This document shows positions 886 to 28,112 of a stretch of DNA of 64,000 nt, in pieces (within the stretch, counting starts at the first letter, position 1; each line of letters opens with the position of its first letter). A program made the position numbers and the translations under genes. Source of the stretch: a bacterium (GTDB lineage Bacteria; CAYTYR01; UBA6262); the NCBI GenBank assembly GCA_028712895.1, contig JAQTPL010000001.1, positions 3,681 through 67,680 on the forward strand, read 5' to 3'. Under the pieces are notes generated by a model, which did not search any database, had not been told where the DNA came from, and worked only from the letters and a program-made list of their open reading frames with translations.

Positions 886-976
886 CTATTTCTCCAAACT
901 GCTATTAATAGCACTTTCAAGAAACAATATGCCATTATATCGTTCATTTGTCAAGTATTATTTTGTCCTGACCTCA

Positions 977-2323: not shown

Positions 2324-2348
2324 TTAATATTATTATGTCCCCGGAATT

Positions 2349-2819
2349 TTAATTCAAATAAACGAGCGCTCCATTCAATATCCCTGCAAAACTGACCCAT
2401 ATTATGTAAGGTACCAACAGCCACGCTGCCGCTGTCGATACTTTTTTAAAAACCACTATCGTCCACAGTATGGCGCACCATAATACTATTATGACTCCCA
2501 TGGCTCCAGCAATAGAATGGAGCCCAAAAAACACCGCTGACCAGCTAACATTCAACGCCAGTTGCAAAGCAAATATCCACATTGCTTTCCTGGTACTTGG
2601 CTTCTCTGCTGATCTCGCCCATACCATATACAAAGCTATACCCATCAGGAGAAATAATGTGTTCCATACAGGCATAAACACCCAATCCGGTGGATTAAAA
2701 GCCGGCTTTTGTATAGTCGTGTACCAGGTTTTTACCGAATTAGCCGTAAAGAGCCCGCCTAATCCCCCTGCCAGTTCACATATAATGATGCTTAGTGTTA
2801 GTTTCAGCCACTTTTTCAT
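2349..2819 (-). CDS. tspO: TspO/MBR family tryptophan-rich sensory protein
   Basis: The 156-aa, 5-TM Trp-rich protein has the motifs KPAFNPPDWVFMPVWNTLFLLMGIA and LALNVSWSAVFFG characteristic of TspO. Confidence 0.8.
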   Translation of the reverse strand: MKKWLKLTLSIIICELAGGLGGLFTANSVKTWYTTIQKPAFNPPDWVFMPVWNTLFLLMGIALYMVWARSAEKPSTRKAMWIFALQLALNVSWSAVFFGLHSIAGAMGVIIVLWCAILWTIVVFKKVSTAAAWLLVPYIIWVSFAGILNGALVYLN

Positions 2820-2834
2820 CTAACTACCTACCCT

Positions 2835-3344
2835 TTATATCTTCCTGCTATCATAGGCCCAATGCAGTATTGCCTGTCTTTGTTTCGGACGGCAGGTAAT
2901 GCCACCAGGCGGGCAATTCTTTTTGACCTGGGCGATATGACGGGCCATCGCTTTCCATCTTTTGATTTGACGTTGGTCCTCGCGCGGCAGCCGTCGCCCC
3001 ATATAGTAGCGGCAATACCACTGGAACCAGCCACGGGGATCATCAGGATAGATCCATCCTTTTTTCCTCCAATATGAGAGCGGTTTGCTGGCATTCACTC
3101 CGAAGTAATTCAGCTTGGGGTCATGCTGTTCAGGGCAGAGTTTGGCTTTTTTGAACCAGTCAGCCGGGAATTCTTTCTGGCAATCTGTCATATATTTGCC
3201 GCCGAATATGCCCATAGCCAGCATTTGTTTCGGAGTTATTTCCGGTTTAAAGTCAGGCGTAAAATTCCAGCCCACAGGCTCTACCAACTGGTACCGGTAA
3301 TTCTTTTGCATCTTATCGTTGACCACCACGGTTTTCAGTTTCAT
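2835..3344 (-). CDS. conserved hypothetical protein (Trp/Tyr/Arg-rich, 169 aa)
   Basis: The intact ORF is bounded by the TspO gene and the island boundary. No family was recognised from sequence alone. Confidence 0.45.
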   Translation of the reverse strand: MKLKTVVVNDKMQKNYRYQLVEPVGWNFTPDFKPEITPKQMLAMGIFGGKYMTDCQKEFPADWFKKAKLCPEQHDPKLNYFGVNASKPLSYWRKKGWIYPDDPRGWFQWYCRYYMGRRLPREDQRQIKRWKAMARHIAQVKKNCPPGGITCRPKQRQAILHWAYDSRKI

Positions 3345-3434
3345 AACCTGCCTAATTTAATTAGTATTGCCTGCCCCCGCGGCTTTGATTTTCCAGTTTC
3401 TCGGACAAATCATCATGGGTGTTCCCGGATTTAA

Positions 3435-3512
3435 CCGGACACCTACGCGGTGTCTGAAAAGGGTCTACGATGTTGATAGTTTAGCCCTGACCCCGTTTTT
3501 CACAAGTTCCGG
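3435..3512. repeat. REP-like composite repeat (copy A), left boundary of the AT-rich island
   Basis: Contains the hairpin module gacacc-tacgc-ggtgtc and the module ggggtcagggctaaactatcaaca (as reverse complement). Its reverse complement recurs at 11984-12082, with module variants at 10696, 10800, 11634, 12779 and 14053. Confidence 0.7.
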
Positions 3513-3656
3513 AGCTTCTCAAGGTAACTGATGGGTGTGGCGCCGACTGGATAATCTTTATAGCAATCATTAAACTTAAGATTGTGGAAAATCTTTCAAG
3601 GGATATCTATCTCTTCCCTTGACAATCACCTAAATAGGTGACCCCGGTGTATTTCC

Positions 3657-4607
3657 TTACAGGTTTATAATTAATCCTTGAATCTTAGGAGGAATCGGGC
3701 CAAAAATATCCTTTAATTCCTTTGATATATACATGTTTCTTCTATGATTTCTAAATCCTTTATAAACTGCTTCGACATCAGAATCAATCAATATACCTAA
3801 AACCGCTTGAAATGGAGTAATTGAATGGGCAGATAAGATATATTTATATTTATCGGATTCAAAATTCTGTTCTAAATAAGTTACTTCCTTATTACAAATA
3901 TTAAGAACCTCATATATTTCATTAACTAATCCATGCATATTTTGAGGTAAATTAGGCAAGCCCCATGTCTTCTGTATAAGCACACATATTCTTGCTTTTC
4001 GAGCAAAGTCTTCGAAGTTATTATCAGGACAAATATTAGCCACCTCATCTATATGTCCAAGGATTTGATCTGATTGTTCAAGCATTGCTTTTATTTGATG
4101 GGCTATTCTAAAGCGAGGCCAAAGTAATTTATCTCCTTTATATAATATATCATGAGTGGCTTTTGCCCAACCATGCTGCAGGAATGTTTTAATTTGTAAC
4201 TCAAAAGGTCTCATCAAATATTCTTTTCCTGGCACACTTACTTGTGGATTATAGTTAATATGCAGATGTAAATCGTCATAGATGAAATTAGAATATTCTT
4301 TGCTACGGTTCTTAATTTGTTTAATCACAATGAACTGTTTTTCTACATCTCTTTTTATTAATTCAACCTGTACATGTGTCGCGACTACAATAGTAGCAGC
4401 ATACAAGTCAATAATATCGTCATGATTAGCATATTTGCCAGTCTCTATTTTTTGGGCAAAACTTTCCTTCTCCTTAATTCTGCTGCTAAATAAACCATCA
4501 AAACGTAAGGAAATTGAATCCAAAACAGGATCAATTTCCCTTTTTAATAATTCTAGTTTTTGCTGAATATTATCATATATTTCTGATATCCTGCTTGAAA
4601 TAATCAT
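3657..4607 (-). CDS. RelA/SpoT-domain nucleotidyltransferase (small-alarmone-synthetase-like, toxSAS-like) with a ~150-aa C-terminal extension
   Basis: The N-terminal half carries the ordered synthetase motifs SRIKEKESFAQK (R-x-K-x3-S-x3-K), DLYAATIVV (D-x2-G-x-R-ii), YDDLHLHINY and FELQIKTFLQHGWAKATHDILYKG (E-x-Q-x-R-T...W-A...H..YK). The start ATG overlaps the stop of the DUF262 gene (ATGA). The gene is very AT-rich. Confidence 0.6.
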   Translation of the reverse strand: MIISSRISEIYDNIQQKLELLKREIDPVLDSISLRFDGLFSSRIKEKESFAQKIETGKYANHDDIIDLYAATIVVATHVQVELIKRDVEKQFIVIKQIKNRSKEYSNFIYDDLHLHINYNPQVSVPGKEYLMRPFELQIKTFLQHGWAKATHDILYKGDKLLWPRFRIAHQIKAMLEQSDQILGHIDEVANICPDNNFEDFARKARICVLIQKTWGLPNLPQNMHGLVNEIYEVLNICNKEVTYLEQNFESDKYKYILSAHSITPFQAVLGILIDSDVEAVYKGFRNHRRNMYISKELKDIFGPIPPKIQGLIINL

Positions 4608-5602
4608 TTTGTTTTAATCAACTTTTTAATAATAATTTTTCTAGACTCTCTGTTAACTTTATCATTAGGTTGAGCGCTAATTGCGTTTTGATAAATTGTA
4701 ACATCTTTTTCTAAGGATTTTATATCGACTTTTTTAATAAACTTAAGTATATTCTTTCTAGAAGCTTCAAAATCAATATCTTCAGCTATTAATTCTAATA
4801 ATGCTGCCCATAAAGAGTAAAAATCAGAATAATTACTTAATCTATTTGAGCATGTATCCAATTTAAGCTTAATAATAGATCCTTTTACCTTATCAAACTC
4901 TTTTCTCGCTTTTTTTTCATTAGGAATTTCTTCATCATATTCAGCATAATAATTATCCAATAAGTCCTTATCTGTAGTGGAAATCCCATGCATCGTTAAA
5001 AAGAACAATTCTGAGATAAATTCAACATCTTTCATCCTTCTTATTGTTGCGGGCCTACTAATGCAAATATCTTCCCAAAAAGGATCGTCTGCAACTTCCG
5101 TTATAAGAGATATAAATCTTCCAGAATATTTAGCATGCCTTAATTCTTGAGCTGTCAACTTCAAAACATTTCTATTCAATCTATCAAATGTATCGTTAAT
5201 TATTTCTTCTTCTGCGCCCTGGAGATTTTCAACTGAAATTTCATATCCCCATAATTTACTTCTATTATCATTTGATAATTCTCCAAAATATTTACCATTC
5301 AGTTCTAAATTGCCAAAATCATCTGGTATAGCTATTTTACCCTGTACAAAATCCATAATAGATTCAAGGCGCTGTTTCCCATCAACTACATAATATGTAA
5401 CAACTCCATTTGGAGCAACAATAGTATTTAGAAATATTGAAGGAGAAGGATAATTTCTCATAATAGTATCTATGAAAAAGCGCTTATACGATTTGGTCCA
5501 AACACTTCTCCTTTGGTATGGAGGATCTAAAACCATTAACTTTCTATTAATTAAATCAATAAACCATGCAATATTTTGCCTGTTCAATGTTCTTTGTATC
5601 AT
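4604..5602 (-). CDS. DUF262 (ParB/Srx-fold, GmrSD N-terminal-like) domain protein
   Basis: The 332-aa protein carries DPPYQRRSVWTKSYKRFFIDTIMRNYPSPSIFL and VVDGKQRLESI, the DGQQR-type DUF262 signature. No DUF1524/HNH half is present. It is translationally coupled to the RelA/SpoT-like gene. Confidence 0.65.
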   Translation of the reverse strand: MIQRTLNRQNIAWFIDLINRKLMVLDPPYQRRSVWTKSYKRFFIDTIMRNYPSPSIFLNTIVAPNGVVTYYVVDGKQRLESIMDFVQGKIAIPDDFGNLELNGKYFGELSNDNRSKLWGYEISVENLQGAEEEIINDTFDRLNRNVLKLTAQELRHAKYSGRFISLITEVADDPFWEDICISRPATIRRMKDVEFISELFFLTMHGISTTDKDLLDNYYAEYDEEIPNEKKARKEFDKVKGSIIKLKLDTCSNRLSNYSDFYSLWAALLELIAEDIDFEASRKNILKFIKKVDIKSLEKDVTIYQNAISAQPNDKVNRESRKIIIKKLIKTK

Positions 5603-5708
5603 TTTAGTTCCTCCTCATTTTTCTTATTTTGAAAAATGTGTCTTATAACTGGGAATATAGCACTTATTTCTTTTAGATAGTATTGTTTGATGCCCCGGAT
5701 ATCCAAAA

Positions 5709-6827
5709 TTAAATTGTGCATTGTCCTTCATTGCTAATTACTACATTTTGTTTCTTCCAATCTTTAGGCAATAAAGTATCTTCATTATTACTAAAATAAG
5801 AAGCCCTTACTATTCCCACTAGATCTTGTATTTCATTTGCATATTGATTACCTTTGTTATATCGTTCTATAATTTCTCTTTCTAACCAATACTCTGATTT
5901 ATACATATCTTCTTTATTTTCATATTCTTTTAAAATATTATTATAGTCATAAAGTATTTTATTTACTCCAATTTCAACGCTTTTATTATCAGAAATTATT
6001 CTATCAGTTTTCACTTGCATAATACCTAATGTTTTTGAATGACCTACTTTAAATAGTAAAACCTCAAGCATACGAATAAGCTTAGGCCTATTAAAAGACT
6101 CATAAATCATAATTGAATAAATTAATGCTTTTAATTTTGCATTTGTTACTTTATCTTCTATTATAGATTTGTATTTATGCTGATAAGAGAGAAACTTATA
6201 ATCAATATATTTGCTCTTCCTTTTTTCTGTATCTCTTGGTGACAGTTTAATATTATTAAACAATTCATATAGAAAAAATATAATTATTAACCATAATTCG
6301 TTACCAATTGTTTGCATATCTGGAAATAAGTAACTTCTTACAACTATTAGCTTCCTGTATATAAAATATGATATAAATATTATTATTACTGCACATAATA
6401 ATTCCTTATTCCAGTCAAGTAACTTTGCTCTTCCGAGAGCTAAGTTAAATAGCAATCTAAATGCTACATAGTATACGCTTATCAAGTAAATACTATTTAC
6501 ATATATATCCATCGAAAGTGCATATAATATAACTGAAATTATAATTATATATACAACTGGCGAAAATATTCTATAAATAAAATTAAACATTGGTGCTTCA
6601 TCTGCCTTCATAAATATTGATAGTTCCATATATCCCTTTGAGTATGACTGTTTACCAATAATGTTAATCAGAATAAACTGAAGTAATGCTAATCCAAAAT
6701 GTAATGTATAAGTATCCCAACTCATTTTGATTTCACCTACTTTATTAAATAGACCATGCAACGTGGTCAGGCACTGAAACGTGAAAGTAATTCTTTGTCT
6801 GGATTCAGAATTAGTATTGTGTCTCAC
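5709..6827 (-). CDS. integral membrane protein with a C-terminal soluble domain (hypothetical)
   Basis: The 372-aa ORF likely starts at the internal Met (MSWDTYTL, ~6725). It has about 6 hydrophobic helices followed by a ~150-aa polar domain. The domain bears a weak ESF...GIMQ...YN.G resemblance to lytic transglycosylases, which is uncertain. A 10-nt gap separates it from the upstream protease gene. Confidence 0.5.
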   Translation of the reverse strand: MRHNTNSESRQRITFTFQCLTTLHGLFNKVGEIKMSWDTYTLHFGLALLQFILINIIGKQSYSKGYMELSIFMKADEAPMFNFIYRIFSPVVYIIIISVILYALSMDIYVNSIYLISVYYVAFRLLFNLALGRAKLLDWNKELLCAVIIIFISYFIYRKLIVVRSYLFPDMQTIGNELWLIIIFFLYELFNNIKLSPRDTEKRKSKYIDYKFLSYQHKYKSIIEDKVTNAKLKALIYSIMIYESFNRPKLIRMLEVLLFKVGHSKTLGIMQVKTDRIISDNKSVEIGVNKILYDYNNILKEYENKEDMYKSEYWLEREIIERYNKGNQYANEIQDLVGIVRASYFSNNEDTLLPKDWKKQNVVISNEGQCTI

Positions 6828-6836
6828 ATATTAATT

Positions 6837-7724
6837 CTAAATTTGTATAAATGAAGAACCTAAATGGTTTTCAATAATTTTACCTGCTTGTGTTGCCGAT
6901 AAGGTATGAATAAAAGTATGATGAACCGTTAAGACAGCATCTTGAAGTTCATTATCTTGCTCTAACATAGATATTCTTAATCCAACTTCTATACATCGTT
7001 CTGGAGGTAAATGTCTAGAATGGGATAAAGTTACATCATGACTACCTATTACTTCCACAATTCTATTAGCAGTATCGGAACGCAGTGGTTCTGACAAATC
7101 AGCTAGCATCCCTGTCCCTAGCCACTTTTTTACCAAATATTCAGACCAATTAATAGCTTTTTGGCATTCTCCAATAAAAGCAGGTGGGTATTTAGCTATT
7201 ATCGGTTGCCAAACTGGTATTTTTGCAGGGTTTGCCTTTATTTCATTATATGCTTTTTCAAACTCTTCAATAACGCCTTGGGCTGGAATACCATTAAATT
7301 GTGGGTCAATTGGACCAAGACTGGAGTGTTTACCCATTAATATTTCCTTGCAAGCGCAAGCAATCATAGTGCCCGCAGACATAGCAAGTTGAGGGACAAT
7401 TGCTCTTATATTTGTCCCAAACAAACTACGTAAATAGTCTACTAATGATTCTGTAGCAGCTGTTTCACCACCGGGAGTATGTAAAATTAAATCTAGTCCT
7501 TTCGATTTGTCCATACCTTTTAAAGTAGACATGAAACCATTTTTATCATTATCATTAATCGAAGCGACTAAAGGATGCATTTGTTTTTGAAGCCAACCAG
7601 AATAATACGCTATAACATTACGCCCTGTCAGTTCATAAAGCTTTTTGAGATATTTTCTTCTAATAATGTCAAAGGTGCTTCCTGATCCTTTTATTTCTTC
7701 TAATAACTCTTCCCAGTTTCCCAT
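6837..7724 (-). CDS. Clp-fold serine protease, SDH/S49-like family
   Basis: The 295-aa protein carries ILHTPGGETAATESLVDYLRS and AMSAGTMIACAC (a Ser nucleophile in a GxSxG-like context), typical of ClpP-fold SDH-type proteinases. Confidence 0.5.
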   Translation of the reverse strand: MGNWEELLEEIKGSGSTFDIIRRKYLKKLYELTGRNVIAYYSGWLQKQMHPLVASINDNDKNGFMSTLKGMDKSKGLDLILHTPGGETAATESLVDYLRSLFGTNIRAIVPQLAMSAGTMIACACKEILMGKHSSLGPIDPQFNGIPAQGVIEEFEKAYNEIKANPAKIPVWQPIIAKYPPAFIGECQKAINWSEYLVKKWLGTGMLADLSEPLRSDTANRIVEVIGSHDVTLSHSRHLPPERCIEVGLRISMLEQDNELQDAVLTVHHTFIHTLSATQAGKIIENHLGSSFIQI

Positions 7725-7882
7725 TTGCCACTCCTATCAGATAACGTATTATCCGTAATCAATATTTTCCACTTATCATCGGTTAGAAAATTACTAATAT
7801 TCCTTAAGTCTGTTTCTTTCCCATGGCCAATACCTAATATTTTGTATAGTTCTATTATCTTTGTTTTAGTAATATTGCGCAT
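7700..7882 (-). CDS. small hypothetical protein (60 aa), first gene of the protease/membrane-protein cluster
   Basis: This ORF-track entry is AT-rich like its neighbours and overlaps the protease start by 25 nt. No family was recognised. Confidence 0.3.
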   Translation of the reverse strand: MRNITKTKIIELYKILGIGHGKETDLRNISNFLTDDKWKILITDNTLSDRSGKWETGKSY

Positions 7883-7922
7883 TGATTACTCCTTAATAAT
7901 TATTTTAGGACAGATTTTTTGA

Positions 7923-8384
7923 TTATCTAGAGTTGTATTCTATCATTAATTTATCTACCAACTTAAAGACTCTTTTATTAATCTGACATTCCCAAAAAGT
8001 TAAAACCTTCCATCCTAAACTCTTTAATTCTTTATGTTTCCTTTTATCTCTCTCAATATTATTTCTAAACTTGTTGCTCCAAAATCTAATATGTGTCTTC
8101 GGCTTTGAAGGATTACAATATGGGCAGCGATGCCAATAACATCCGTTGACGAATATTGCAATTTTCTTATTTAGATAGCATATATCAGGCCTTCCTAATA
8201 CCTTTTTGCAGTGAAGCCTATACCCTCTTAATCCAGCCTCTCTTAGAGCCTTTCTAAGTATCAGCTCAGGCTTTGTGTTCTTTGCCTTAATAGCACTCAT
8301 TATACGAGATGTAATTTCTTTTTTAGGGATTGGAGCGCGACCATCTCTAATGTATTGATACCCCTTGTTACTATTTAAATACAT
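7923..8384 (-). CDS. vsr: very short patch repair endonuclease Vsr
   Basis: The 153-aa protein carries SRIMSAIKAKNTKPELILRKALREAGLRGYRLH and GRPDI...KIAIFVNGCYWHRC, matching the Vsr catalytic and zinc motifs. It lies directly downstream of the C5-MTase. Confidence 0.85.
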   Translation of the reverse strand: MYLNSNKGYQYIRDGRAPIPKKEITSRIMSAIKAKNTKPELILRKALREAGLRGYRLHCKKVLGRPDICYLNKKIAIFVNGCYWHRCPYCNPSKPKTHIRFWSNKFRNNIERDKRKHKELKSLGWKVLTFWECQINKRVFKLVDKLMIEYNSR

Positions 8385-9683
8385 TTATAAAGCCTCATCA
8401 AGAGTCTGGAATAGTGCTTTCCCAATTTTATCAACTACACCAACAACTAATGCATTTCCCATAAAAAAGGCACGTCTTGAATCAGGGACACCTTTTGTAT
8501 GATTAACCGGGAACATATTTAATTTTTCAAGCTCAATCGGAGTAAGCCGTCTATATTTACCAATCTTAGTTTTAATTACATGCTTAAATCTTGATGGTGT
8601 GGCTCCTCCCTCGCCCGTAATGATAGTCCTGGAAGGCTTATCAAGAAGATCTGGGAAAGACATCGAGCCTTCAGAATAATTGTATTCAAAACCTCCTGAG
8701 CTTTTTCGTAGTTCTTTTTTTGCACCTTTAAGATATTTCCATCTTGGGATATCCTTTTCGTCAATATAGTACTCTAGAGGCACTTCACTCTCTTTTTGTA
8801 ATATTTGTCCTAGCGTTTGCCTTTCCCCTGAATATTTTGGTGCAGTATGAATAGTGAATACTTCCCTATCTTTCATGATCCCTGTGTTCTGAAATGGTGA
8901 CATATTACGATCACCTTTAAAAACACCTGATATTTCAAATAAGTCTCCTTCCAATTTAAAAAATCCTTCGTTTATAGGTATGTCAGTTTTATTTTGGATA
9001 ATTGGGAAAGCCTTGGTAATAGGTCCATCTGATAAAAACCAATAAGCAAGATGCTCTCGTTCTATAATTCTTTTATAAATCTCTGAACCTTTTTTATATG
9101 CTAGTATATATACTCGCCTTCTTCTTTGTGGCATTCCATAGTCTGCAGCATTTATTACGCGCCATTCTACTATATATCCTAGGTCAGACAAGGAAGCTAA
9201 CATTATTCCAAAATCACGGCCTCGCTGTTTTGCAGGTGATTTTAGTAGTCTATCTACATTTTCTAAGAAGAGATAGTTTGGTGAATGTTGTCCTTTCTCT
9301 TTTAAAATTCTATGAATTTGCCACCACAGGACACCTTTTTTCCCTACAAGGCCCTCAGCCTTACTTAAAGTGCGCGCCACCGAATAATCCTGACATGGGA
9401 ACCCACCTACAAGCAAATCATGGTCAGGTATATCATTAATTGATACTTTTGTTATATCCTCATTAGAATGCCCCTTACTACTAAACCGCAATTTATAAAT
9501 ATCAGACGCGTGTTGCTGTTTTGTCGTCGGTTCCCATTGATTGCTCCAAACAACCTCATAATTTCCTTCGTTTTTCTTGCCAGGCTCTCCTTCTAGGCCA
9601 AGCCTAAAACCACCTACCCCTGCAAATAATTCTATTACCTTCAAAGGCTTTCCTTTTGTCATATAACAAGTCTCCATAATCAA
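8385..9683 (-). CDS. dcm: DNA (cytosine-5)-methyltransferase
   Basis: Motif I is LKVIELFAGVGGFRLGLE, motif IV is GGFPCQDYSVA, motif VI is FLENV, and motif X is GNALVVGVVDKI near the C-terminus. The true start is probably at MTKGKPLKV. Confidence 0.85.
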   Translation of the reverse strand: MIMETCYMTKGKPLKVIELFAGVGGFRLGLEGEPGKKNEGNYEVVWSNQWEPTTKQQHASDIYKLRFSSKGHSNEDITKVSINDIPDHDLLVGGFPCQDYSVARTLSKAEGLVGKKGVLWWQIHRILKEKGQHSPNYLFLENVDRLLKSPAKQRGRDFGIMLASLSDLGYIVEWRVINAADYGMPQRRRRVYILAYKKGSEIYKRIIEREHLAYWFLSDGPITKAFPIIQNKTDIPINEGFFKLEGDLFEISGVFKGDRNMSPFQNTGIMKDREVFTIHTAPKYSGERQTLGQILQKESEVPLEYYIDEKDIPRWKYLKGAKKELRKSSGGFEYNYSEGSMSFPDLLDKPSRTIITGEGGATPSRFKHVIKTKIGKYRRLTPIELEKLNMFPVNHTKGVPDSRRAFFMGNALVVGVVDKIGKALFQTLDEAL

Positions 9684-9700
9684 ATAATTAATAATGCTTT

Positions 9701-10561
9701 CTACTTATTTCCAATATAGAATATCTTGATGAGGTCCTCTGTTGAGATAGGTGATACCCCTCGTCCTCTAGCGAATCCATCTATGAATTTACCTATCATG
9801 ATTTGATTATCCTCAATTAAAAAAGCTAAAAATGCAATAAATGTAAGGACTGTATTTATTCTGCCTGTGTTACGAAGCCAATCTGGTTTTTTTTCTTTCT
9901 CTTGAGCTTTTTTTATGGTTCTATAGAAATACTTGCAGTCTTCATTCCATGCGATTAATTCAATATAATATAATAAAGCTTCAAATGACATATCTGCAAT
10001 TTGAGGTATAATTTTTGAAAATTGTTCATAAGCCTTTTGAGGTGGTATATATTCATAAAATGGCTCCATATATTTTGAACCTTCATTTTCTTGCATTGCC
10101 CCATATAAATAAGTAATATCCCTACTATCACATGCACATTCTTCATTTGCCTTTTTAGTATGATCACACATATATGCCATTCTATATAACATAACACCAA
10201 ATAATCTTATAAGCTCCTTTTTTGACTCATCGCATTCCTTCAGTTCTTGATACATTTTGCCTGCAATATTGCCAAACGATAAATTATCCATTCTTTTTTT
10301 ATCAAGCGTGATTAACTCTGGTCTAAAATCCCATGGCCGGGATGATGCTCTTTCTGCCTCTTTTCCTGGATATTGAATCCTTAAACTCTCGTTCTTTTTA
10401 GTAAACTTTATTAATATTTGCTTCTCTTTCTTTCCATAAATCAACCCTACTCTTGGTAAATCTCTAACCCATAAAATATTGTATTTTCGTTTTTCTGTAG
10501 ATGGTGCTCTTATTCCACTACTTTCTAAGTTAGTAGGCAAGATATCCCGAACATTAAGCAT
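9701..10561 (-). CDS. putative type II restriction endonuclease partner of the C5-MTase (no recognisable family)
   Basis: The 286-aa AT-rich ORF sits 17 nt upstream of the MTase in the same orientation. The call rests on position alone. Confidence 0.35.
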   Translation of the reverse strand: MLNVRDILPTNLESSGIRAPSTEKRKYNILWVRDLPRVGLIYGKKEKQILIKFTKKNESLRIQYPGKEAERASSRPWDFRPELITLDKKRMDNLSFGNIAGKMYQELKECDESKKELIRLFGVMLYRMAYMCDHTKKANEECACDSRDITYLYGAMQENEGSKYMEPFYEYIPPQKAYEQFSKIIPQIADMSFEALLYYIELIAWNEDCKYFYRTIKKAQEKEKKPDWLRNTGRINTVLTFIAFLAFLIEDNQIMIGKFIDGFARGRGVSPISTEDLIKIFYIGNK

Positions 10562-10873
10562 TTAATACTCCTCACCGTTTTTAATTAGCAGATTTAAGTG
10601 GTTTCATTTTTTTACTGCCCCATACACTGTACCTAATTGTATTCTACGCCAAAGTACATCGATATACTTGAAGCCGGCGGATTGCAGTGAAACCCAACGG
10701 GGTCAGCCCTTGAAATGTGAAATGATTCCCATGACTGTCAGTTCCAAACCGTAAACCCTCTGCTGTTAGATTCGTAATTAATTTTGACCCATTTCCCATC
10801 TACGCGGTGTAGAATCTGGGGACATAATACTCATTCTACTTAATTAGTATTGCCTTCCCGGAATTCCCAAGGA

Positions 10874-11590
10874 TTACACCATTGCTTTTATGTGAGAATC
10901 TACTATTCTTTCTCCTAATAGCTCTATAGCTTTCCTGGCAATTTCAATATCCATTGGAATCTTTTCAATAACACTTCTCTTAAATGACAAACCGAATCTC
11001 ATCCCCCCATTTGTTTCTATAGAAATAGCAATTGTTTTAGTTAAAAAATACTTTACTATCATAGCCAAACATAACACCCATCCAATTAAAGGTATAATAT
11101 CTGTAAAAATGATTCTATGCCAATTGCTTAATAGGTCAATTTGCATTGTATAAATATTATAATATCTCTGAAATAAGTTATATCCTATGCTTAATATCGC
11201 TATTATTGGCCCTATAATAATGAACTGTACTGGTTTTATAAATCCGCAACTAGCGCTTGCTACAGATTTAAGTGACACAACATGATTCACTTCACAAAAA
11301 AAGCTTTTACTTTTAAAACTAATTTCCTTATTTGTAACTAACAGCTGCGTTACCATATCAAATTTAAGCAATGTTAATAACCATGAAAATATACCGGGAT
11401 GTCTTCCTTTAATTTCTATTATTATATTCGATTCTACAGAAGGCGTGTCGTTTATCTTAAATTTCTTTAGAACAAATACTTTCCCAGGAAAGTTAAATTG
11501 ACTACTAGCTTTTTTAGCTAACCAGAATCCAATTATTAAGACTATTACTCCTATTGATATCAATACAATTAAATAAGTTTGTCCGTACAT
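10874..11590 (-). CDS. hypothetical membrane protein (238 aa)
   Basis: It has an N-terminal TM helix and further hydrophobic segments. It is AT-rich and flanked by REP-like repeats. Confidence 0.45.
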   Translation of the reverse strand: MYGQTYLIVLISIGVIVLIIGFWLAKKASSQFNFPGKVFVLKKFKINDTPSVESNIIIEIKGRHPGIFSWLLTLLKFDMVTQLLVTNKEISFKSKSFFCEVNHVVSLKSVASASCGFIKPVQFIIIGPIIAILSIGYNLFQRYYNIYTMQIDLLSNWHRIIFTDIIPLIGWVLCLAMIVKYFLTKTIAISIETNGGMRFGLSFKRSVIEKIPMDIEIARKAIELLGERIVDSHIKAMV

Positions 11591-11701
11591 TTGATTCTCC
11601 TTTCTAATTATTTGAAATCATAAATAACGAAAACAACGGGGTCAGCCCTTGAAACTTGAATCCGTAACCCTATTTTCCACTTCGGAAGTGGAAAGACGGT
11701 T

Positions 11702-11953
11702 CTATTCTAGCAGAAGAGCCTTAATCTCCGCAAGTTTCCTTTGATAATCAATTCTATCTTCAACAAAAGGCTTATATGTTTCCGGATCAATCTCCAGTAG
11801 TTCCGTAAATTCACAAATCTTAGGCTTATTATACGAAATAAACTCTTGGTACGATGATGAATGCCAGGAATTAGGATGTTCCACTAAATTTGCCGTGGCT
11901 GGATTTAAATGGATATACCTGGTCAAATGTAAGAGCTGGGCATCTGTCTCCAC
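11702..11953 (-). pseudogene. truncated RAYT/IS200-like transposase (C-terminal 83 aa only)
   Basis: QLLHLTRYIHLNPATANLVEHPNSW...YQRKLAEIKALL aligns at about 50% identity with the C-terminus of the full-length RAYT at 12089..12745. The HuH N-terminal half is absent. Confidence 0.6.
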
Positions 11954-11983
11954 TAAAACATTTTTGAACTTGACCTAATAATT

Positions 11984-12082
11984 GGGGTCAGGGCTAAACT
12001 ATCAACAAAAACTTCCCCCCGTACACCCTATCAGACACTCCTCCACCCCGTAGACCCTTTCAGACACCGCGTAGGTGTCCGG
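11984..12082. repeat. REP-like composite repeat (copy B), inverted relative to copy A with a 42-nt internal duplication
   Basis: This is the reverse complement of 3435-3512, apart from an inserted partial repeat (ccgtacaccctatcagacac...). Confidence 0.7.
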
Positions 12083-12088
12083 AGGGGT

Positions 12089-12745
12089 TCATGATTCTAA
12101 AATAAGATGCTTTATCTGTGCCAGCTCTCTTTGATATCCTACGCGATCTTTTACAAAAGATGTATAATCCTCAGCTTTAATATCAACGACATCTGTAAAT
12201 CTGCAGAATGATTTGCTGTTACTAATGCCAGTATATTCTTGATAAGAAGAATTTATCCACTCTTTTGGATCATTTACGATGAAAGATGTCACCGGATTCA
12301 AATGTACATATCTGGTCAGGTGCAATAATTGAGTGTCATCCTTAACCAGGACATTCTTAAATCTGCTCTCCCATAATGGACCCTTCCGTCCATGTTTTTT
12401 ATTGAAATATTTGGTATAGCTATTTAGAATATTATTCATGAACTTAGAAATACCTTCATCCTTTGTTTGTTTCAATATAAGATGCAGATGTGTAGGCATT
12501 AGACAATAAGCAATTGTTTCAACAGACTCTTCTTCGGCAGAGATTTGATCATTAAGTATTCTCTGCTTAGGCTCGGAGAGTTCTAGGAACTTAGCGAACC
12601 TTATTGCTGGTTTTTCCGCATGATAATAGCGGATCACTTCTATCATTCTGTTAAATTCTTCCTGGTCATTGAAAATCACATACCCGGCAATACTTTTCGT
12701 AAAAACATGGTAAACCTGCCCATTTGCCAGCGCTTCTTTTCTCAT
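12089..12745 (-). CDS. REP-associated tyrosine transposase (RAYT) / IS200-like TnpA
   Basis: The HuH motif is CLMPTHLHLIL and the catalytic Tyr region is LHLTRYVHLNPV. The protein is 218 aa. Confidence 0.8.
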   Translation of the reverse strand: MRKEALANGQVYHVFTKSIAGYVIFNDQEEFNRMIEVIRYYHAEKPAIRFAKFLELSEPKQRILNDQISAEEESVETIAYCLMPTHLHLILKQTKDEGISKFMNNILNSYTKYFNKKHGRKGPLWESRFKNVLVKDDTQLLHLTRYVHLNPVTSFIVNDPKEWINSSYQEYTGISNSKSFCRFTDVVDIKAEDYTSFVKDRVGYQRELAQIKHLILES

Positions 12746-12940
12746 TTATTAGTTTACATCCGCATCTATTATTCTTAAACCCTTTCAGACACCTATCCTC
12801 CACTAAAACGTTGGCGAACTCCCAAGGGTCGCGCGGTGTCTTAAGGGTTAATCTACAAGGTTGACAGTTTGCTATTATGAGCTATCCGGAATTCCCGGAT
12901 AACTCAAAACACCATGTGCAAAAATTGCACATACTTGATT

Positions 12941-13408
12941 TTATAATCTAAAATTAAGTTCTAGTTGCGGATTTTCCTTCTTAACTTCTATCAAGATTTG
13001 CTTCAATAGTTGTATGCCATCTTTAAAAGCCTTATGGCTCTCTTTTTTGCTCACTAATATGCCGGCTTCATAGGTCATTTCGTTTCTTTTCCTGCGCATA
13101 GTCTCGAATTGGTCAGTGATATCTCTGTAACGTTTCCCCAATATGGCACTGGTTATTTCTACCACAGTTCGATGTTGTGCTCCATCATCAGGAACATACC
13201 CGTTGCTCAATAATAAAGCTCTACCTGCCTTGAGCATGGCCATATACGCCATAACATAAGTTGCCCGTTCGGCAATCGGTAATGTCTTTTGCGCTTCCTG
13301 CAAATCCAATATTGATTGTTTCAGTAACGCCTCTATCTGAACTATACCGGCCTTCTGTTTTCTTAATTTTCCTTCCTTAAGCAGCCTTTCTATGAGTTTT
13401 TGCGGCAT
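12941..13408 (-). CDS. HEPN domain protein (partner of the adjacent nucleotidyltransferase)
   Basis: It carries a PF05168-like LKAGRALLLSNGYVPDDGAQH motif. It overlaps the MNT gene by 32 nt. Confidence 0.55.
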   Translation of the reverse strand: MPQKLIERLLKEGKLRKQKAGIVQIEALLKQSILDLQEAQKTLPIAERATYVMAYMAMLKAGRALLLSNGYVPDDGAQHRTVVEITSAILGKRYRDITDQFETMRRKRNEMTYEAGILVSKKESHKAFKDGIQLLKQILIEVKKENPQLELNFRL

Positions 13409-13964
13409 TTACCTCCCCTTTCAGTATTATTATTTTCCCGTTAGTGATCAGGTTAAGAAAACTGCCAGATTTAGCTGTTTCTTTCTTAAATTCGTCTTTA
13501 TCATAATGGGTGAAATTGATTTCGCGACCTATTTTGGATTCTAAATTGCGGACCTTGCGGGTGAATTCGTCCAAGGGGAATTGTCCAACTACTAATAGAT
13601 CTATATCCGAGGATTTATTTTCGTTTTCTTTGGCATATGAGCCATATATGAAAGCCAGGGATATACCTTTATATTTTGCTATTATATTTCTTAATGATCC
13701 CTCTATACCTTCTGTCTTGAAGATTATCTCTTTAATTTCTTTGTATAAAGGGTATTCTTTGCTGAGGGAATAATATTTTGAATTGCCGCGGATGAACGAT
13801 TTGAAAAGGCCTTCTTTTTCCAGCTTATTCAGCTCCCTGGATAAATTACCGGGGTCGTCATTGATAATGGCTGCTATTTCCCGGACATAATAATTCTCAT
13901 CAGGATGGCTAAAGAAATAGGTTAAAACGCTCTTTCTCAATTTGGTGTTGATAAGTATAGACAA
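13377..13964 (-). CDS. nucleotidyltransferase (MNT) with N-terminal wHTH
   Basis: It has the signature GSYAKENENKSSDIDLLVV (GS...DxD) and an N-terminal ArsR-like helix YYVREIAAIINDDPGNLSRELNKLEKEGL. Confidence 0.7.
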   Translation of the reverse strand: MSILINTKLRKSVLTYFFSHPDENYYVREIAAIINDDPGNLSRELNKLEKEGLFKSFIRGNSKYYSLSKEYPLYKEIKEIIFKTEGIEGSLRNIIAKYKGISLAFIYGSYAKENENKSSDIDLLVVGQFPLDEFTRKVRNLESKIGREINFTHYDKDEFKKETAKSGSFLNLITNGKIIILKGEVNAAKTHRKAA

Positions 13965-14159
13965 GCTTATATCCTCATATTGTATTTATTACATCATACG
14001 TTGTAAATAATACAACAGTCATGCTATTTTGTCAAGTTCTTCAGTCGGAAGAAACGGGGTTAGTCCTTGAAACTTGAAACTCTCTCCCCACCCAAAACTA
14101 CCCGCCAAGACCCTCCACCACCCTCCAATAAGCTTTGGCGGGCTAAAGAGCTATGGCGG

Positions 14160-14549
14160 TTATAATAGCCAGTACTCTTTAGGCGAAATAATCTTAATGC
14201 TTTTATACTGTTTTAATACAAGCAGATCCTTATCGCCAGTAATAATAACATCTATCCCATTAGCATCTGCATCTGCCAAGATATGATTATCATCCTTGTC
14301 CCGGCAGCAATCAGGGATGTTTTTCCCAGCAACACCTTCCTGGAAATGTTTTTCTATAAATACAGTCATATCCTTTATTATGGAAGCGGTAAACTTGAAT
14401 TTGGTCCTGAAATTATGGTGGAATTCTTTAAGGATATACTGGGTATAGAATACTTCGTGGGTGTTGACCGCGCTTTGAACTATGTCGTAACAGTTTCCAT
14501 TACTCAGGAAAGCCGCAATTAGGACATTGGTGTCAAAAAGGATCTTCAT
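14160..14549 (-). CDS. PIN-domain toxin (VapC-like)
   Basis: KILFDTNVLIAA places an Asp at position 6. DADANGIDVIITGDKDL supplies the C-terminal acidic residues. Confidence 0.7.
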   Translation of the reverse strand: MKILFDTNVLIAAFLSNGNCYDIVQSAVNTHEVFYTQYILKEFHHNFRTKFKFTASIIKDMTVFIEKHFQEGVAGKNIPDCCRDKDDNHILADADANGIDVIITGDKDLLVLKQYKSIKIISPKEYWLL

Positions 14550-14767
14550 GAGATCTTTTCCAGGATCTCATCTTCTGAAAGCACAATACCTCTCTTCGCT
14601 GCCTCCAGCATGGCTTTTTTGCGCAACTCATCAAATTCGGTCTTAAAAAAGTAATCCTTCAGGGCCTTGCGCACTACTTCACTGATATTGGCGTTTTCTT
14701 TCTTGCTATTATCTTTAAGCTTGCGGAGTATTGCGTCCGGCAGGCTTATGGATACACTGTTTCTCAT
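14546..14767 (-). CDS. ribbon-helix-helix (CopG-like) antitoxin
   Basis: The 73-aa ORF overlaps the PIN start by 4 nt. ISLPDAILRKLKD is a beta-strand followed by helices, as in RHH folds. Confidence 0.6.
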   Translation of the reverse strand: MRNSVSISLPDAILRKLKDNSKKENANISEVVRKALKDYFFKTEFDELRKKAMLEAAKRGIVLSEDEILEKIS

Positions 14768-14884
14768 ATTAATACCCTCCTGTATTACAATGTAGCACAG
14801 TATTGTCTATTTGTCAAGAAATAAACAATCATTTCGTTAATTATCTTTTTTGACTATTAGAATTTATCGAATAGTTGGTTACAA

Positions 14885-15199
14885 TTACTTCTTTTCTTTA
14901 AGTTTGGCTATGACATCGGCGGTTTTCATTAAATTCCTGCCTTCTTCGGTGACCACTAAATTAAAAAAGTCACATCGCATACAATTGCTGACCTTTCGGG
15001 CAAAAGAGCCCTGGATCTTGGAGTCACAAAAAGTCCCGGCGATCGCCCAGCAAACACGCCCGCCATTTATGCCGCCATGTACACCAAAGACACGAGTATT
15101 TGTGGCTGCCGGACATACGCCTAATTCATTAACCTTGCTGCCACCAGGCTCCCGGCCGCACCTTTTTAATTCCCAGCAGTTGATTTTCAATATTGGCAT
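14885..15199 (-). CDS. small cysteine-rich protein, paralog 1 (unknown family)
   Basis: The 104-aa protein has 7 Cys in the pattern NCWELKRCGRE...GVC...GVHGG.NGGRVCWAIAGTFC...NCMRC. It shares about 45% identity with 34140..34439. Confidence 0.55.
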   Translation of the reverse strand: MPILKINCWELKRCGREPGGSKVNELGVCPAATNTRVFGVHGGINGGRVCWAIAGTFCDSKIQGSFARKVSNCMRCDFFNLVVTEEGRNLMKTADVIAKLKEKK

Positions 15200-15289
15200 G
15201 TATAACCCTTTATTCCACTCTGAGGTGGACAGTTTGTTATTTAAGCTATCCAGAATGACTAAAGATTCATACCAAGGTGGCTAAGCTAA

Positions 15290-16549: not shown

Positions 16550-16578
16550 GAGTAGCCTCCTCTGTCCAGGATCCTGGC

Positions 16579-16956: not shown

Positions 16957-16966
16957 ACATTATCCT

Positions 16967-17941: not shown

Positions 17942-18097
17942 TAAGTTTTTAATCTAATATAAAATACCATAATCAGTCCTATGCAGGCAATAAAAAATGT
18001 AGATAATAGTCAATTAAAAGCGGCGTCAGCCAATTACTACTTAATGGGAGATGAGGTAAGATCAGGATAGGCAATAAAAAAAATAAGGAGGGATCGC

Positions 18098-28065: not shown

Positions 28066-28112
28066 GTAAATACCGCAAACCCTCTAACTGTCCCCTTCGC
28101 AGGGAACGACTG

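What the first reader, a model, noticed from the sequence alone, without database searches (positions are those of the whole stretch)
3435..14078. REP/REPIN-like repeat family associated with a RAYT transposase; inverted copies bracket the island
Seen in sequence:
- A composite repeat has two modules. One is a hairpin core gacacc-tacgc-ggtgtc. The other is an (a)acggggtcag(g/c)(g/c)ct core.
- It occurs at 3435-3512 and, as its reverse complement with a 42-nt internal duplication, at 11984-12082, immediately downstream of the RAYT gene.
- Partial copies lie at 10696-10720, 10800-10810, 11634-11659, 12779-12850 and 14053-14078, each in an intergenic gap.
- A second short motif (taattagtattgcct) recurs at 3357 and 10843.
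- A diverged C-terminal RAYT fragment (11702..11953) lies beside the intact RAYT.

Established knowledge:
- RAYTs mobilise REP/REPIN hairpin repeats.

Inference:
- Repeats sitting at the gene-cassette boundaries suggest they mark insertion or recombination joints through which defense cassettes were assembled.
Basis: partly seen in the sequence, partly recalled or inferred. Interest (0 to 1): 0.55.

Follow-up and report, generated by a model that had tools for sequence, protein, structure and literature searches.

The report
RAYT transposase with REP hairpin repeats
A small tyrosine-transposase gene flanked by its own hairpin repeats (a "REPtron") has seeded related hairpins into the gaps between defence and toxin-antitoxin genes of an uncultured bacterium; this is a known kind of element in a new lineage, not a new mechanism.

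Summary
The repeats are real and non-random, with three corrections.
- The long inverted repeat is 60 nt (3435-3494), not 78.
- The "internal duplication" at 12008-12048 is a truncated second repeat unit.
- The low-GC island runs to about 14.85 kb, so the inverted pair does not bracket it.

The gene at 12089-12745(-) is a Y1/HUH transposase of the RAYT type. It is flanked by inverted copies of one hairpin (GACACC-TACGC-GGTGTC), as are seven of seven homologue loci examined, each with its own stem.

The repeat unit is a hairpin plus a GGGTYTACGG tail, which is the classical REP "GTAG" tag on the other strand. It is often followed by an end module (…GGGCTGACCCC). Stems covary: 93% of cells paired, and all 6 pairs changed on both sides.

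The fragment at 11705-11974 comes from a second RAYT lineage. The hairpin after its stop is the one that flanks that lineage's intact gene elsewhere, so RAYT and REP form cognate pairs.

The exact subfamily is low-copy (2-3 per genome seen), units are solo or in direct tandem (not REPINs), and they cluster beside variable defence/TA cassettes in relatives too.

The idea that the repeats are cassette assembly joints is plausible but unproven. Verdict: a REPtron with BIME-like REP clusters, a new member of a known kind.

The parts
12089..12745 (-). Intact RAYT-type Y1/HUH transposase gene (218 aa). It has the HUH motif 'PTHLHLIL' and the catalytic-Tyr motif 'LTRYVHLNPV'.
   Evidence: Pfam Y1_Tnp 7e-9. 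NCBIfam REP_Tyr_transpos 68.8 bits, the only hit, below the cut-off of 80. The only PDB hit is 4ER8 TnpA_REP, E=9e-4, with the HUH, W-x-x-RF and Y-x-x-NP motifs aligned. Translation. There are 2084 homologues, mostly 216-225 aa, where named from Omnitrophota/Elusimicrobia MAGs.
12048..12088 (-). Downstream REP of the REPtron, starting right after the stop codon: ACCCCTCCG-GACACC-TACGC-GGTGTC-TGAAAGGGT-CTACGG. It is a two-tier hairpin followed by the CTAC tag (GTAG on the other strand).
   Evidence: CM R1 gives 42.8 bits, but it is a seed sequence. DNA fold -9 kcal/mol, z -1.8. 90.5% identical block with L004, including its downstream REP.
12779..12850 (-). Upstream REP of the REPtron, inverted relative to the downstream one (loop reads GCG..TA). 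A 36-nt nested hairpin module is inserted in the loop.
   Evidence: Read and compared with the L004 upstream REP 'acccttaaGACACCgcgtaGGTGTCcgaaggggt'. The fold keeps the outer and inner stems around the insert, -12.1 kcal/mol, z -2.2. The insert is 46/47 identical to L008:7198-7244.
12008..12048 (-). Truncated second REP unit in tandem: the 3' half of a long-loop unit with its GTGTACGG tail.
   Evidence: Reading, compared with L015:3660-3705. CM hit is marginal (7.2 bits).
11984..12007 (-). End module 2A (TGTTGATAGTTTAGCCCTGACCCC), which closes the REP array downstream of the RAYT gene.
   Evidence: 24/24 with 3471-3494. 31/31 with UBA6262 L015:4007-4037. Also present in L019.
3435..3470 (+). 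Solo REP unit (GACACC type) in inverted orientation, lying 55 nt inside the variable region at the island's left edge.
   Evidence: CM 43.5 bits, seed.. Homology to relatives L018/L019 ends at 3365-3379.
3471..3494 (+). End module 2A attached to the solo REP.
11705..11974 (-). C-terminal fragment (residues ~128-217) of a second RAYT lineage, truncated at its 5' end.
   Evidence: 86.5% identical to P0027/P0032 and 54% to the intact RAYT. Weak NCBIfam REP_Tyr_transpos hit.
11662..11701 (-). Cognate REP of the fragment, directly after its stop: TTTCCACTT-CCG-AAGTGGAAA plus the GGGTTACGG tail.
   Evidence: CM 32.8 bits, seed. Fold -9.7 kcal/mol, z -3.0. The same hairpin flanks the intact P0027 gene on both sides, with inverted loops, in L042.
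11634..11660 (-). End module 2B (CAAGTTTCAAGGGCTGACCCCGTTG). It can form a small hairpin CAA(C)GGG-GTCAG-CCCTTG.
10695..10813 (-). Decayed REP cluster: a degenerate hairpin (10795-10813), the tail AGGGTTTACGG (10749-10759) and module 2B (10695-10715).
   Evidence: CM marginal, 15.3 bits, E=0.045.
14046..14150 (-). Decayed long-loop unit (14085-14150) plus a module 2B variant (14046-14078), upstream of the HEPN-MNT cassette promoter.
   Evidence: The orthologous arrangement is at L015:2309-2400.
28073..28110 (-). Intact REP unit with a different stem (GTTCCC/GGGGAC) and tail GGGTTTGCGG, outside the island.
   Evidence: CM 28 bits, seed. Its fold is weak, z -0.8.
3357..3372 (+). 16-nt motif TTAATTAGTATTGCCT, copy 1. 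It lies at the edge of the conserved flank, in the 5' leader of the 169-aa gene.
10840..10855 (+). 16-nt motif, copy 2. It is a direct repeat of copy 1, 7.48 kb away.

Best explanation
The locus is a REPtron: a RAYT-type single-strand-DNA tyrosine transposase gene (12089-12745, minus strand) flanked by inverted copies of its cognate REP hairpin. A decayed second REPtron of another lineage lies next to it (11634-11974).

The other repeats are members of the REP family dispersed from such genes. Each unit is an imperfect hairpin followed by the conserved tail GGGTYTACGG. That tail is the 'GTAG/GTAA + palindrome' design of classical REPs read on the other strand.

Units occur alone or in direct tandem arrays. 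The arrays usually end in a conserved extra-palindromic module (…CAAGGGCTGACCCC / TAGCCCTGACCCC), giving BIME-like mosaic clusters in intergenic gaps.

Inferred mechanism, by analogy with E. coli TnpA_REP and IS200/IS605 enzymes:
- the RAYT binds the folded hairpin on single-stranded DNA;
- it cuts at the tag via its HUH/Tyr site;
- it rejoins the DNA, so units are copied into new intergenic sites, preferentially next to existing units.

The copy at 3435-3494 is simply a third member (unit + end module) that happens to lie in the opposite orientation at the edge of a variable defence/TA hotspot. It is not one end of a mobile 8.5-kb element.

The position of units between cassettes most likely reflects two things. 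Insertions are tolerated in the loose intergenic DNA of a variable island. Repeated arrays may also promote homologous exchange there.

What is shown: the architecture, covariation, cognate pairing and distribution in relatives. What is inferred: catalysis, mobility and any role in cassette exchange.
For: 1. **Protein.** Y1_Tnp domain. The only NCBIfam hit is REP_Tyr_transpos. The only PDB hit is TnpA_REP 4ER8, with the HUH, WxxRF and YxxNP motifs aligned.
2. **REPtron architecture.** The 93% homologue on L004 has inverted GACACC hairpins on both sides. The window shares a 750-nt block at 90.5% that includes both REPs. Homologues at 56-61% identity (L005, L034, L037, L041) and P0027 (L042) are each flanked by inverted hairpins with lineage-specific stems and inverted loops: 7 of 7 loci.
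3. **Cognate pairs.** The fragment at 11705-11974 is 86.5% identical to P0027. It is followed by the TTTCCACTT hairpin that flanks P0027 in L042.
4. **Hairpin under selection.** Across 17 units, 93.1% of cells are paired. All 6 pairs show changes on both sides. 0/500 shuffles reach the percentage paired or the covariation score, and only 1/500 reaches 6 pairs changed on both sides. Slid controls give at most 45%.
5. **Family spread.** Related units occur in UBA6262 (L006, L008, L015), STB_132 (L009), L018 and L026. A covariance model also picks up the REPs flanking distant homologues in L005 and L041.
6. **End module.** It follows a unit tail, in the same orientation, in 10 of 14 intergenic copies; 4 stand without an adjacent unit (window 10715, L018, L019 x2). 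The fifteenth hit, in L005, lies inside a gene and looks like chance. There are 0 hits in 123 kb of unrelated control loci.
7. **Homologues behave like single-copy resident genes.** P0023 sits in the same neighbourhood on 24 contigs, and P0020 lies among valS, the QRPTase (nadC-type) gene and uvrB.
8. **No sign of inversion.** All genes between the inverted copies stay on the minus strand and GC skew is monotonic.
9. **Literature.** GTAG-tagged REPs, REPtrons and REP clusters downstream of genes are described in PMC3733652. RAYT group properties are in PMC5581495.
Against: - Copy number is low for a REP family. The exact 18-mer core occurs 2 times in this 64-kb window and 3 times in the whole UBA6262 assembly. 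Scans of 185,579 species genomes and of JGI metagenomes gave otherwise single, mostly chance hits.
- The covariance model found no significant unit in the window beyond the four intact seeds.
- The NCBIfam score (68.8) is below the curated cut-off (80).
- No REPIN doublets occur in the window.
- This particular REPtron sits in different neighbourhoods in the window and in L004. That is more IS-like than the vertically inherited RAYTs of Pseudomonas and E. coli.
- The whole source genome could not be scanned, so genome-wide abundance and orientation are unknown.
- Fold z-scores of single units are modest (-0.8 to -4.0).
Confidence: 0.75

Rival explanations
1. IS-like reading. The RAYT gene with its two flanking hairpins (about 0.9 kb, 12048-12950) is still an autonomous mobile unit. 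It hops between or within variable islands, or rides with them. The few extra hairpins are its footprints, not a dispersed and maintained REP population.
For: - The same REPtron (90.5% nt identity) lies in unrelated neighbourhoods in the window and in L004.
- Two REPtrons of different lineages sit side by side, one of them truncated.
- The exact repeat is very low-copy.
- Many homologues lie on 1-2 kb contigs, as expected for repeated or polymorphic DNA.
- Bertels et al. describe IS-like RAYT groups with few flanking-repeat copies.
Against: - No identical second gene copy is seen.
- Other homologues are fixed among housekeeping genes across many assemblies.
- Units without any adjacent RAYT, with several different stems, form arrays in UBA6262. 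A REP copy is kept at an orthologous site in two species.
Confidence: 0.3
2. REP arrays are the joints at which defence/TA cassettes are inserted, excised or swapped, either by RAYT action or by recombination between arrays. The island would then have been assembled cassette by cassette at these repeats.
For: - The HEPN-MNT cassette (88% nt, 91-95% aa identity) lies between REP arrays in both the window and UBA6262 L015, with entirely different neighbours.
- At the syntenic ligA locus, the REP is 93% conserved while the adjacent gene differs: Mrr in L008, a PD40 protein in L009.
- REP clusters in all three UBA6262 loci adjoin TA or restriction genes.
- L018 has the REP + module between defence genes.
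- Each operon boundary in the 10.6-14.2 kb stretch carries a unit or a module.
Against: - The evidence is association only. The loci were found by searching for the repeat, so there is ascertainment bias.
- Several cassette boundaries inside the island have no repeat at all: 4604-4607, 5603-5708, 6827-6837, 7724-7923 and 14768-14849.
- No empty-site/filled-site pair shows a breakpoint at the tag.
- REPs generally accumulate downstream of genes in tolerant intergenic DNA.
Confidence: 0.2
3. The two inverted 60-nt copies (3435-3494 and 11984-12082) are the ends of an 8.6-kb composite mobile or invertible segment that carries the restriction/defence genes.
For: - The copies are near-perfect inverted repeats.
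- The left copy lies 55 nt from the point where homology to relatives ends.
- Logan contigs from three samples all stop at 11979-11989, the inner end of the right copy.
Against: - The right copy is the normal downstream REP array of the REPtron. Its true inverted partner is at 12779-12850, as in L004.
- The low-GC island continues 2.8 kb further.
- Gene strand and GC skew show no inversion.
- A contig from the same sample runs straight through the left copy (L021).
- No relative carries the segment as a unit.
Confidence: 0.05
4. The hairpins are host regulatory elements (terminators, mRNA stabilisers, protein-binding sites). They are unrelated to the transposase, or are integron-like attC sites.
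For: - Most units are co-oriented with the flanking genes and lie just downstream of stop codons.
- End modules lie 45-130 nt upstream of the next start codon, close to sigma-70-like promoters.
Against: - The same hairpins flank the transposase in inverted orientation in 7/7 loci, with lineage-specific stems.
- There is no T-run after the stems.
- Nothing matches Rfam.
- No integrase or recombinase is encoded in the island or in the genes immediately flanking it.
- Stems of 6-9 bp are much shorter than attC sites.
- A secondary regulatory effect of REPs is not excluded and is known for classical REPs.
Confidence: 0.05

Closest known systems
REPtrons: RAYT (TnpA_REP) genes flanked by GTAG-tagged REPs (Nunvar 2010; Ton-Hoang 2012; Messing 2012, PDB 4ER8; Di Nocera 2013, PMC3733652)
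   Same: - HUH/Tyr Y1 transposase.
- The gene is bracketed by inverted copies of an imperfect hairpin.
- A conserved GTAG/GTAA tag sits at the hairpin foot.
- Extra copies of the hairpin lie in intergenic DNA, mostly downstream of genes.
- There are several RAYT lineages, each with its own REP type.
   Different: - Only about 20-25% similarity to E. coli TnpA_REP (phmmer E=9e-4), and below the NCBIfam cut-off.
- A longer protein (218 aa against 165 aa) with an extra N-terminal region.
- Very low copy number of each exact REP type.
- This REPtron sits in a variable island, in different contexts in two populations.
- The host is an uncultured lineage, probably Omnitrophota-related (inference from which homologues are named). 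Two full-text searches found no paper linking RAYTs to it.
BIMEs (bacterial interspersed mosaic elements) of enterobacteria
   Same: Clusters combine several REP types with conserved non-palindromic motifs. They lie between genes.
   Different: Units here are mostly in direct (head-to-tail) order rather than alternating orientation. The arrays end in a specific module (…GGGCTGACCCC). That core fits the GGGGWSAS motif reported for TIRs of 'TIRYT' genes. No IHF-type site was recognised.
REPINs (Bertels & Rainey 2011)
   Same: The same class of transposase, and the same idea of non-autonomous hairpin repeats dependent on a single resident gene.
   Different: No inverted REP doublet with a short spacer exists in the window. 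One is seen only upstream of the 58% homologue in L041. There is no evidence here of populations of tens to hundreds of copies.
IS200/IS605 insertion sequences (IS608, ISDra2)
   Same: The Y1 HUH fold, subterminal hairpins, and an expected single-strand 'peel and paste' chemistry.
   Different: The two ends are inverted copies of one hairpin rather than distinct LE/RE ends. There is no tnpB. No PDB hit to IS608 or ISDra2 TnpA was found. Homologues sit as single genes among housekeeping genes.

Membership tests
RAYT / REPtron | Y1 transposase with an HUH motif and a catalytic tyrosine in a Y-x-x-N-P context | tested here: met
   'MPTHLHLIL' and 'RYVHLNPV' align with the corresponding motifs of 4ER8. 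Pfam Y1_Tnp 7e-9.
RAYT / REPtron | Sequence membership in the curated REP-associated tyrosine transposase model | tested here: inconclusive
   NCBIfam NF047646 is the only hit (4.4e-19), but 68.8 bits is below the cut-off of 80, and only residues 66-163 are covered.
RAYT / REPtron | Gene flanked on both sides by inverted copies of a REP hairpin | tested here: met
   Window 12048-12088 and 12779-12850. The same holds for L004, L005, L034, L037, L041 and L042, all with inverted loops.
RAYT / REPtron | REP = imperfect palindrome with a conserved GTAG-type tetranucleotide at one foot | tested here: met
   CCGTAGACCC/CCGTAAACCC lies next to the outer stem in nearly all units. Stem covariation.
RAYT / REPtron | Flanking hairpin is over-represented elsewhere in the genome relative to the gene | tested here: inconclusive
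   One extra exact copy in the window (3435). There are 3 exact copies on separate UBA6262 contigs, with no RAYT within the 8-kb stretches fetched, plus arrays of related units. The source genome could not be scanned as a whole. Counts seen are far below classical REP families.
RAYT / REPtron | Single-copy, vertically inherited gene | tested here: inconclusive
   Homologues P0023, P0016 and P0020 are fixed in conserved neighbourhoods. This gene and its 93% relative lie in different neighbourhoods.
REPIN | Two REPs in inverted orientation separated by a short spacer, forming one long hairpin that is the replicating unit | tested here: not met
   Units in the window are solo or in direct tandem. 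The inverted pair is 8.5 kb apart.
BIME-like cluster | Arrays mixing REP types with conserved extra-palindromic motifs | tested here: met
   L015:2196-2400 and 3581-4040 hold 9-10 units with 4 stem types plus end modules. Window 11984-12088 and 11634-11701 are smaller examples. Orientation is direct, unlike E. coli BIMEs.
IS200/IS605 insertion sequence | Multiple identical copies per genome, with distinct left and right subterminal hairpins (often with tnpB) | tested here: not met
   The ends are inverted copies of one hairpin. There is no tnpB. The second copy is a 54%-identical fragment of another lineage. Copy number in the full genome could not be tested.
Integron cassette array (attC) | An intI integrase next to the array, and 57-141-nt attC sites with R''/L''-L'/R' boxes | tested here: not met
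   No integrase or recombinase domain in any ORF from 977 to 19655. The repeats are 6-9-bp hairpins with a GTAG tag.

The most novel reading that the evidence does not exclude
REP arrays act as portable recombination boundaries for defence and toxin-antitoxin cassettes. A cassette bounded by arrays that share the common GTAG-tag/tail and end module could be excised, captured or swapped between islands, by RAYT strand transfer or by array-array recombination. That would be an integron-like cassette economy run by HUH transposases. A second miniature hairpin element that inserts precisely at TA|CGC of REP loops (window 12793-12835; L008:7198-7244, 46/47 identical in hairpins with different stems) would be part of the same ecosystem.
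Probability: 0.12. Interest if true: 0.65.

Novelty: new member of a known kind. Interest (0 to 1): 0.3.

Why it matters
RAYT/REP systems are known chiefly from Proteobacteria, with GTAG-tagged REPs also reported in Cyanobacteria, Chloroflexi and the PVC superphylum (PMC3733652).

This locus, with its roughly 2000 homologues, shows that the same design is widespread in uncultured Omnitrophota/Elusimicrobia-type lineages. That design is a resident Y1 transposase bracketed by its own hairpin, with lineage-specific stems and a shared tag.

Practical uses:
- It explains why assemblies break here.
- It gives annotators a recognisable non-coding feature.
- The side-by-side cognate pairs (GACACC and TTTCCACTT) are a natural specificity experiment.

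The link to cassette turnover in defence islands is only suggestive. If it held, it would bear on how such islands are assembled.

Tried and rejected
1. **The 36-nt loop insert as a RAYT remnant.** I first read the insert at 12793-12835 as a third RAYT gene remnant. It translates to 'WEFANVLVED', compared with 'WESRFKNVLVKDD' in RAYT, and shares a 12-mer with the fragment. I rejected this. Other copies of the module (L015, L006, window 14100-14150 and 63261-63285) have the consensus …CCGCCAAAGCTTGTTGGAGGA, which is not RAYT-like. The module itself is a hairpin (TCCTCCA/TGGCGGA).
2. **Integron/attC reading.** No integrase, and the wrong repeat anatomy.
3. **Known RNA family.** An Rfam E-value scan of 3200-15000 gave one chance-level hit only.
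4. **Genome-wide copy count.** The 18-mer scan of species-representative genomes gave 12 loci. Only UBA6262 (3 copies) and STB_132 (1 copy) are related. The metagenome scan gave 12 singletons, of which only L026 is related. The source MAG contig (NCBI, locus tag PHD29_00055, 111,652 nt) was not retrievable through the look-up, so no true genome-wide census was possible.
5. **Covariance-model census of the window.** It found no significant units beyond the seeds.
6. **Inversion between the inverted copies.** No support from gene strand or GC skew.
7. **IHF-type site in module 2A.** None was found by eye. This was not tested formally.

Full report

Yes, with corrections.
- The hairpin core GACACCTACGCGGTGTC occurs exactly twice, at 3438(+) and 12063-12079(-), against 0.03 expected.
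- AACGGGGTCAGSSCT has 6 matches at up to 2 mismatches against 0.28 expected.
- ACCCTTTCAGACAC has 4 matches against 0.26 expected.
- TAATTAGTATTGCCT has two exact copies.
- BLAST of the island's intergenic gaps against the window gave:
  - 3435-3469 = reverse complement of 12049-12082 (34/35);
  - 3471-3494 = reverse complement of 11984-12007 (24/24);
  - 10695-10715 = 11634-11654 (21/21);
  - 11635-11660 close to 14053-14078 (24/26).

Three details need correcting. The shared repeat is 60 nt, not 78. The 41 nt at 12008-12048 are a truncated second unit, not an in-situ duplication. One more intact unit lies at 28073-28110(-), outside the island.

**2. Context**

- Bases 3.5-14.85 kb form a low-GC island (27-39% against about 48% in the flanks).
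- All its genes are on the minus strand:
  - a RelA/SpoT-like gene with a GmrSD_N/NsnA-like gene;
  - an unknown gene with an SDH-type protease;
  - Vsr, Dcm and a 286-aa unknown;
  - a 238-aa unknown;
  - the RAYT fragment and the intact RAYT;
  - HEPN with MNT (PDC-M05);
  - PIN with RHH.
- No integrase is present.
- The 169-aa gene to the left (2835-3344) is conserved. In relatives at 91-96% identity (L018, L019), homology stops at 3365-3379. Entirely different genes follow: AbiEii, Fic, AIPR and HsdR in one, a GH130-like gene in the other. This is therefore a variable hotspot.
- The source is an NCBI MAG labelled only 'bacterium' (locus tag PHD29_00055). The homologues that carry names are mostly Omnitrophota.

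**3. The gene**

- 12089-12745(-) encodes a 218-aa Y1 transposase (Pfam 7e-9).
- Its only NCBIfam hit is REP_Tyr_transpos (68.8 bits, below the cut-off of 80).
- Its only PDB relative is E. coli TnpA_REP (4ER8). The HUH, W-x-x-R-F and Y-x-x-N-P motifs align.
- It has 2084 homologues.

**4. REPtron architecture**

In the 93% homologue locus L004, the gene is preceded by acccttaaGACACCgcgtaGGTGTCcgaaggggt. It is followed, directly after the stop, by accccttcgGACACCtacgcGGTGTCtgaaaagggtctacgg. These are the same two-tier hairpin in inverted orientation.

The window shares this 750-nt block at 90.5% identity. Its downstream REP is intact (12048-12088). Its upstream REP (12779-12850) carries a 36-nt insert in the loop.

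Five more distant homologue loci (L005, L034, L037, L041, L042) also have a hairpin on each side with inverted loops. Each lineage has its own stem: TGTCAATTT, CCCACC, TTACACCC, TCCACC, TTTCCACTT.

Some homologues sit among housekeeping genes in a fixed neighbourhood on many assemblies. That is the behaviour described for RAYTs (PMC5581495).

**5. The repeat unit**

Every unit reads: hairpin (6-9-bp inner stem, often an outer ACCC/GGGT stem), a short linker, then GGGTYTACGG. On the other strand this is CCGTAR-ACCC-hairpin, the GTAG-tagged REP design (PMC3733652).
- An alignment of 17 units from the window, L004, L006, L008, L009, L015 and L026 gives 93.1% paired cells.
- All 6 pairs show changes on both sides. 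0/500 shuffles reach the percentage paired or the covariation score, and 1/500 reaches 6 pairs changed on both sides.
- Slid registers give at most 45%.
- Single-unit DNA folds are -5 to -12 kcal/mol, with z-scores from -0.8 to -4.0.
- A covariance model built from this alignment also recovers the REPs flanking distant homologues in L005 and L041, and non-seed units in L018, L006 and L026.
- In the window it finds only the four intact seed units plus marginal decayed ones.

**6. Cognate pairs**

The fragment at 11705-11974 is 86.5% identical to P0027/P0032 but only 54% to the intact RAYT. Right after its stop comes TTTCCACTTccgAAGTGGAAA plus a tail.

I predicted that an intact P0027 gene would be flanked by this hairpin. 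L042 confirms it on both sides, with inverted loops.

The region 11634-12850 is thus two REPtrons in tandem, with the older one truncated.

**7. Arrays and end modules**

In UBA6262 (L015), 9-10 units with four stem types lie head-to-tail in two arrays.

Arrays usually end in module 2B (caagtttcaagggctgaccccgttg, itself a small hairpin) or module 2A (tgttgatagtttagccctgacccc).
- 10 of 14 intergenic copies follow a unit tail in the same orientation. The other 4 stand without an adjacent unit. One further hit inside a gene in L005 looks like chance.
- There are 0 hits in 123 kb of unrelated control DNA.
- The GGGGTCAG core fits the GGGGWSAS motif noted in the TIRs of 'TIRYT' genes.

This mosaic resembles BIMEs, but with units in direct order.

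**8. Abundance**

- The exact 18-mer occurs in only 12 places among 185,579 species genomes. Three are in UBA6262 and one in STB_132; the rest look like chance.
- The JGI metagenome scan gave 12 singletons, one of them related.
- Each exact REP type is therefore low-copy, and the family's diversity lies in its stems.
- I could not scan the source genome as a whole.

**9. Do the repeats bracket or build the island?**

The copy at 3435-3494 is a unit plus module 2A in inverse orientation, 55 nt inside the variable region. The right-hand copy is the REPtron's own downstream array. Its true inverted partner is at 12779-12850.

The island continues to 14.85 kb. Gene strand and GC skew show no inversion. 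So 'bracketing' is not meaningful here.

For the cassette-joint idea there is circumstantial support:
- The HEPN-MNT cassette (88% nt identity) lies between REP arrays in the window and in L015, with unrelated neighbours.
- At the syntenic ligA locus, the REP is 93% conserved while the adjacent gene differs (L008 against L009).
- REP clusters in UBA6262 and L018 adjoin TA or restriction genes.

Against it: half of the island's gene boundaries carry no repeat, the comparison loci were found through the repeat itself, and no breakpoint maps to a tag.

**10. Verdict**

This is a REPtron with BIME-like, GTAG-tagged REP clusters in an uncultured lineage, a new member of a known kind.
- Mechanism, inferred by analogy with TnpA_REP and IS200/IS605: the enzyme recognises the hairpin on single-stranded DNA, then cleaves and joins at the tag.
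- Confidence is 0.75 for this reading.
- An IS-like, still-mobile REPtron is the main rival (0.3). The two readings are not mutually exclusive.
- Interest is modest (0.3). The most novel reading not excluded is REP-bounded cassette exchange together with a loop-targeting mini-element, at a probability of about 0.12.

Noticed in passing
window 12793-12835; L008:7198-7244; L015:3632-3683; L006:~785-835; window 14100-14150 and 63243-63300; L009:~7050-7080: A 36-42-nt module (TCCTCCA-loop-TGGCGGACT-CCCAAGGGTCG, itself a hairpin) sits exactly between TA and CGC of the REP loop, in hairpins with different stems (GACACC in the window, TCAACC in UBA6262). The two inserts are 46/47 identical. It looks like a second miniature element that targets REP loops, or like conversion between REPs.
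   Followed up: partly
window 3357-3372 and 10840-10855 (+): An exact 16-nt direct repeat, TTAATTAGTATTGCCT (19/20 if extended). The first copy lies exactly where homology to relatives ends. The pair could be an att-like or target duplication around a 7.5-kb block (REP through the Dcm/Vsr genes). It could also be chance, given AT-rich sequence and only two copies.
   Followed up: partly
L018:8473-9436 vs window 1-964: In a 91% relative, the 205-aa gene plus AbiEii pair lies directly upstream of the 169-aa gene. In the window its homologue (93% nt) lies on the other side, beyond the MATE gene. This is a rearrangement or a mobile AbiE cassette.
   Followed up: no
L008:6152-7243 vs L009:5525-6876: At the syntenic ligA locus in two species, the REP and 30 nt of flank are 93% conserved, while the gene between ligA and the REP is Mrr in one species and a PD40/DUF1375 protein in the other.
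   Followed up: partly
L019:1330-1392: Three tandem copies of GGAAGTATTGGGGTC(AG) lead into module 2A with no REP hairpin nearby. Module 2A can therefore occur, and be amplified, on its own.
   Followed up: no
L041:2913-2967: Upstream of the 58% RAYT homologue, two inverted TCCACC hairpins 8 nt apart form a true REPIN-like doublet. This is the only one seen in any locus examined.
   Followed up: no
window 14885-15199(-) and 34354-34433: A small Cys-rich ORF at the island's right edge has a 70%-identical 80-nt stretch 19 kb away, so a paralogue is likely. A marginal REP-like hit (E=0.13) lies just upstream at 15198-15232(-).
   Followed up: no
window 36760-43542(-): A 2260-aa ORF built of many diverged internal repeats with Ala/Lys/Glu-rich periodicity. 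An ankyrin-repeat protein with 99-nt periodic repeats lies at 16967-17941(-).
   Followed up: no
L001-L003 (Logan contigs from SRR22315506/8/9): Three independent short contigs that carry the exact RAYT all end at window position 11979-11989, the inner end of module 2A. This suggests another near-identical copy or a strain polymorphism at that point.
   Followed up: no
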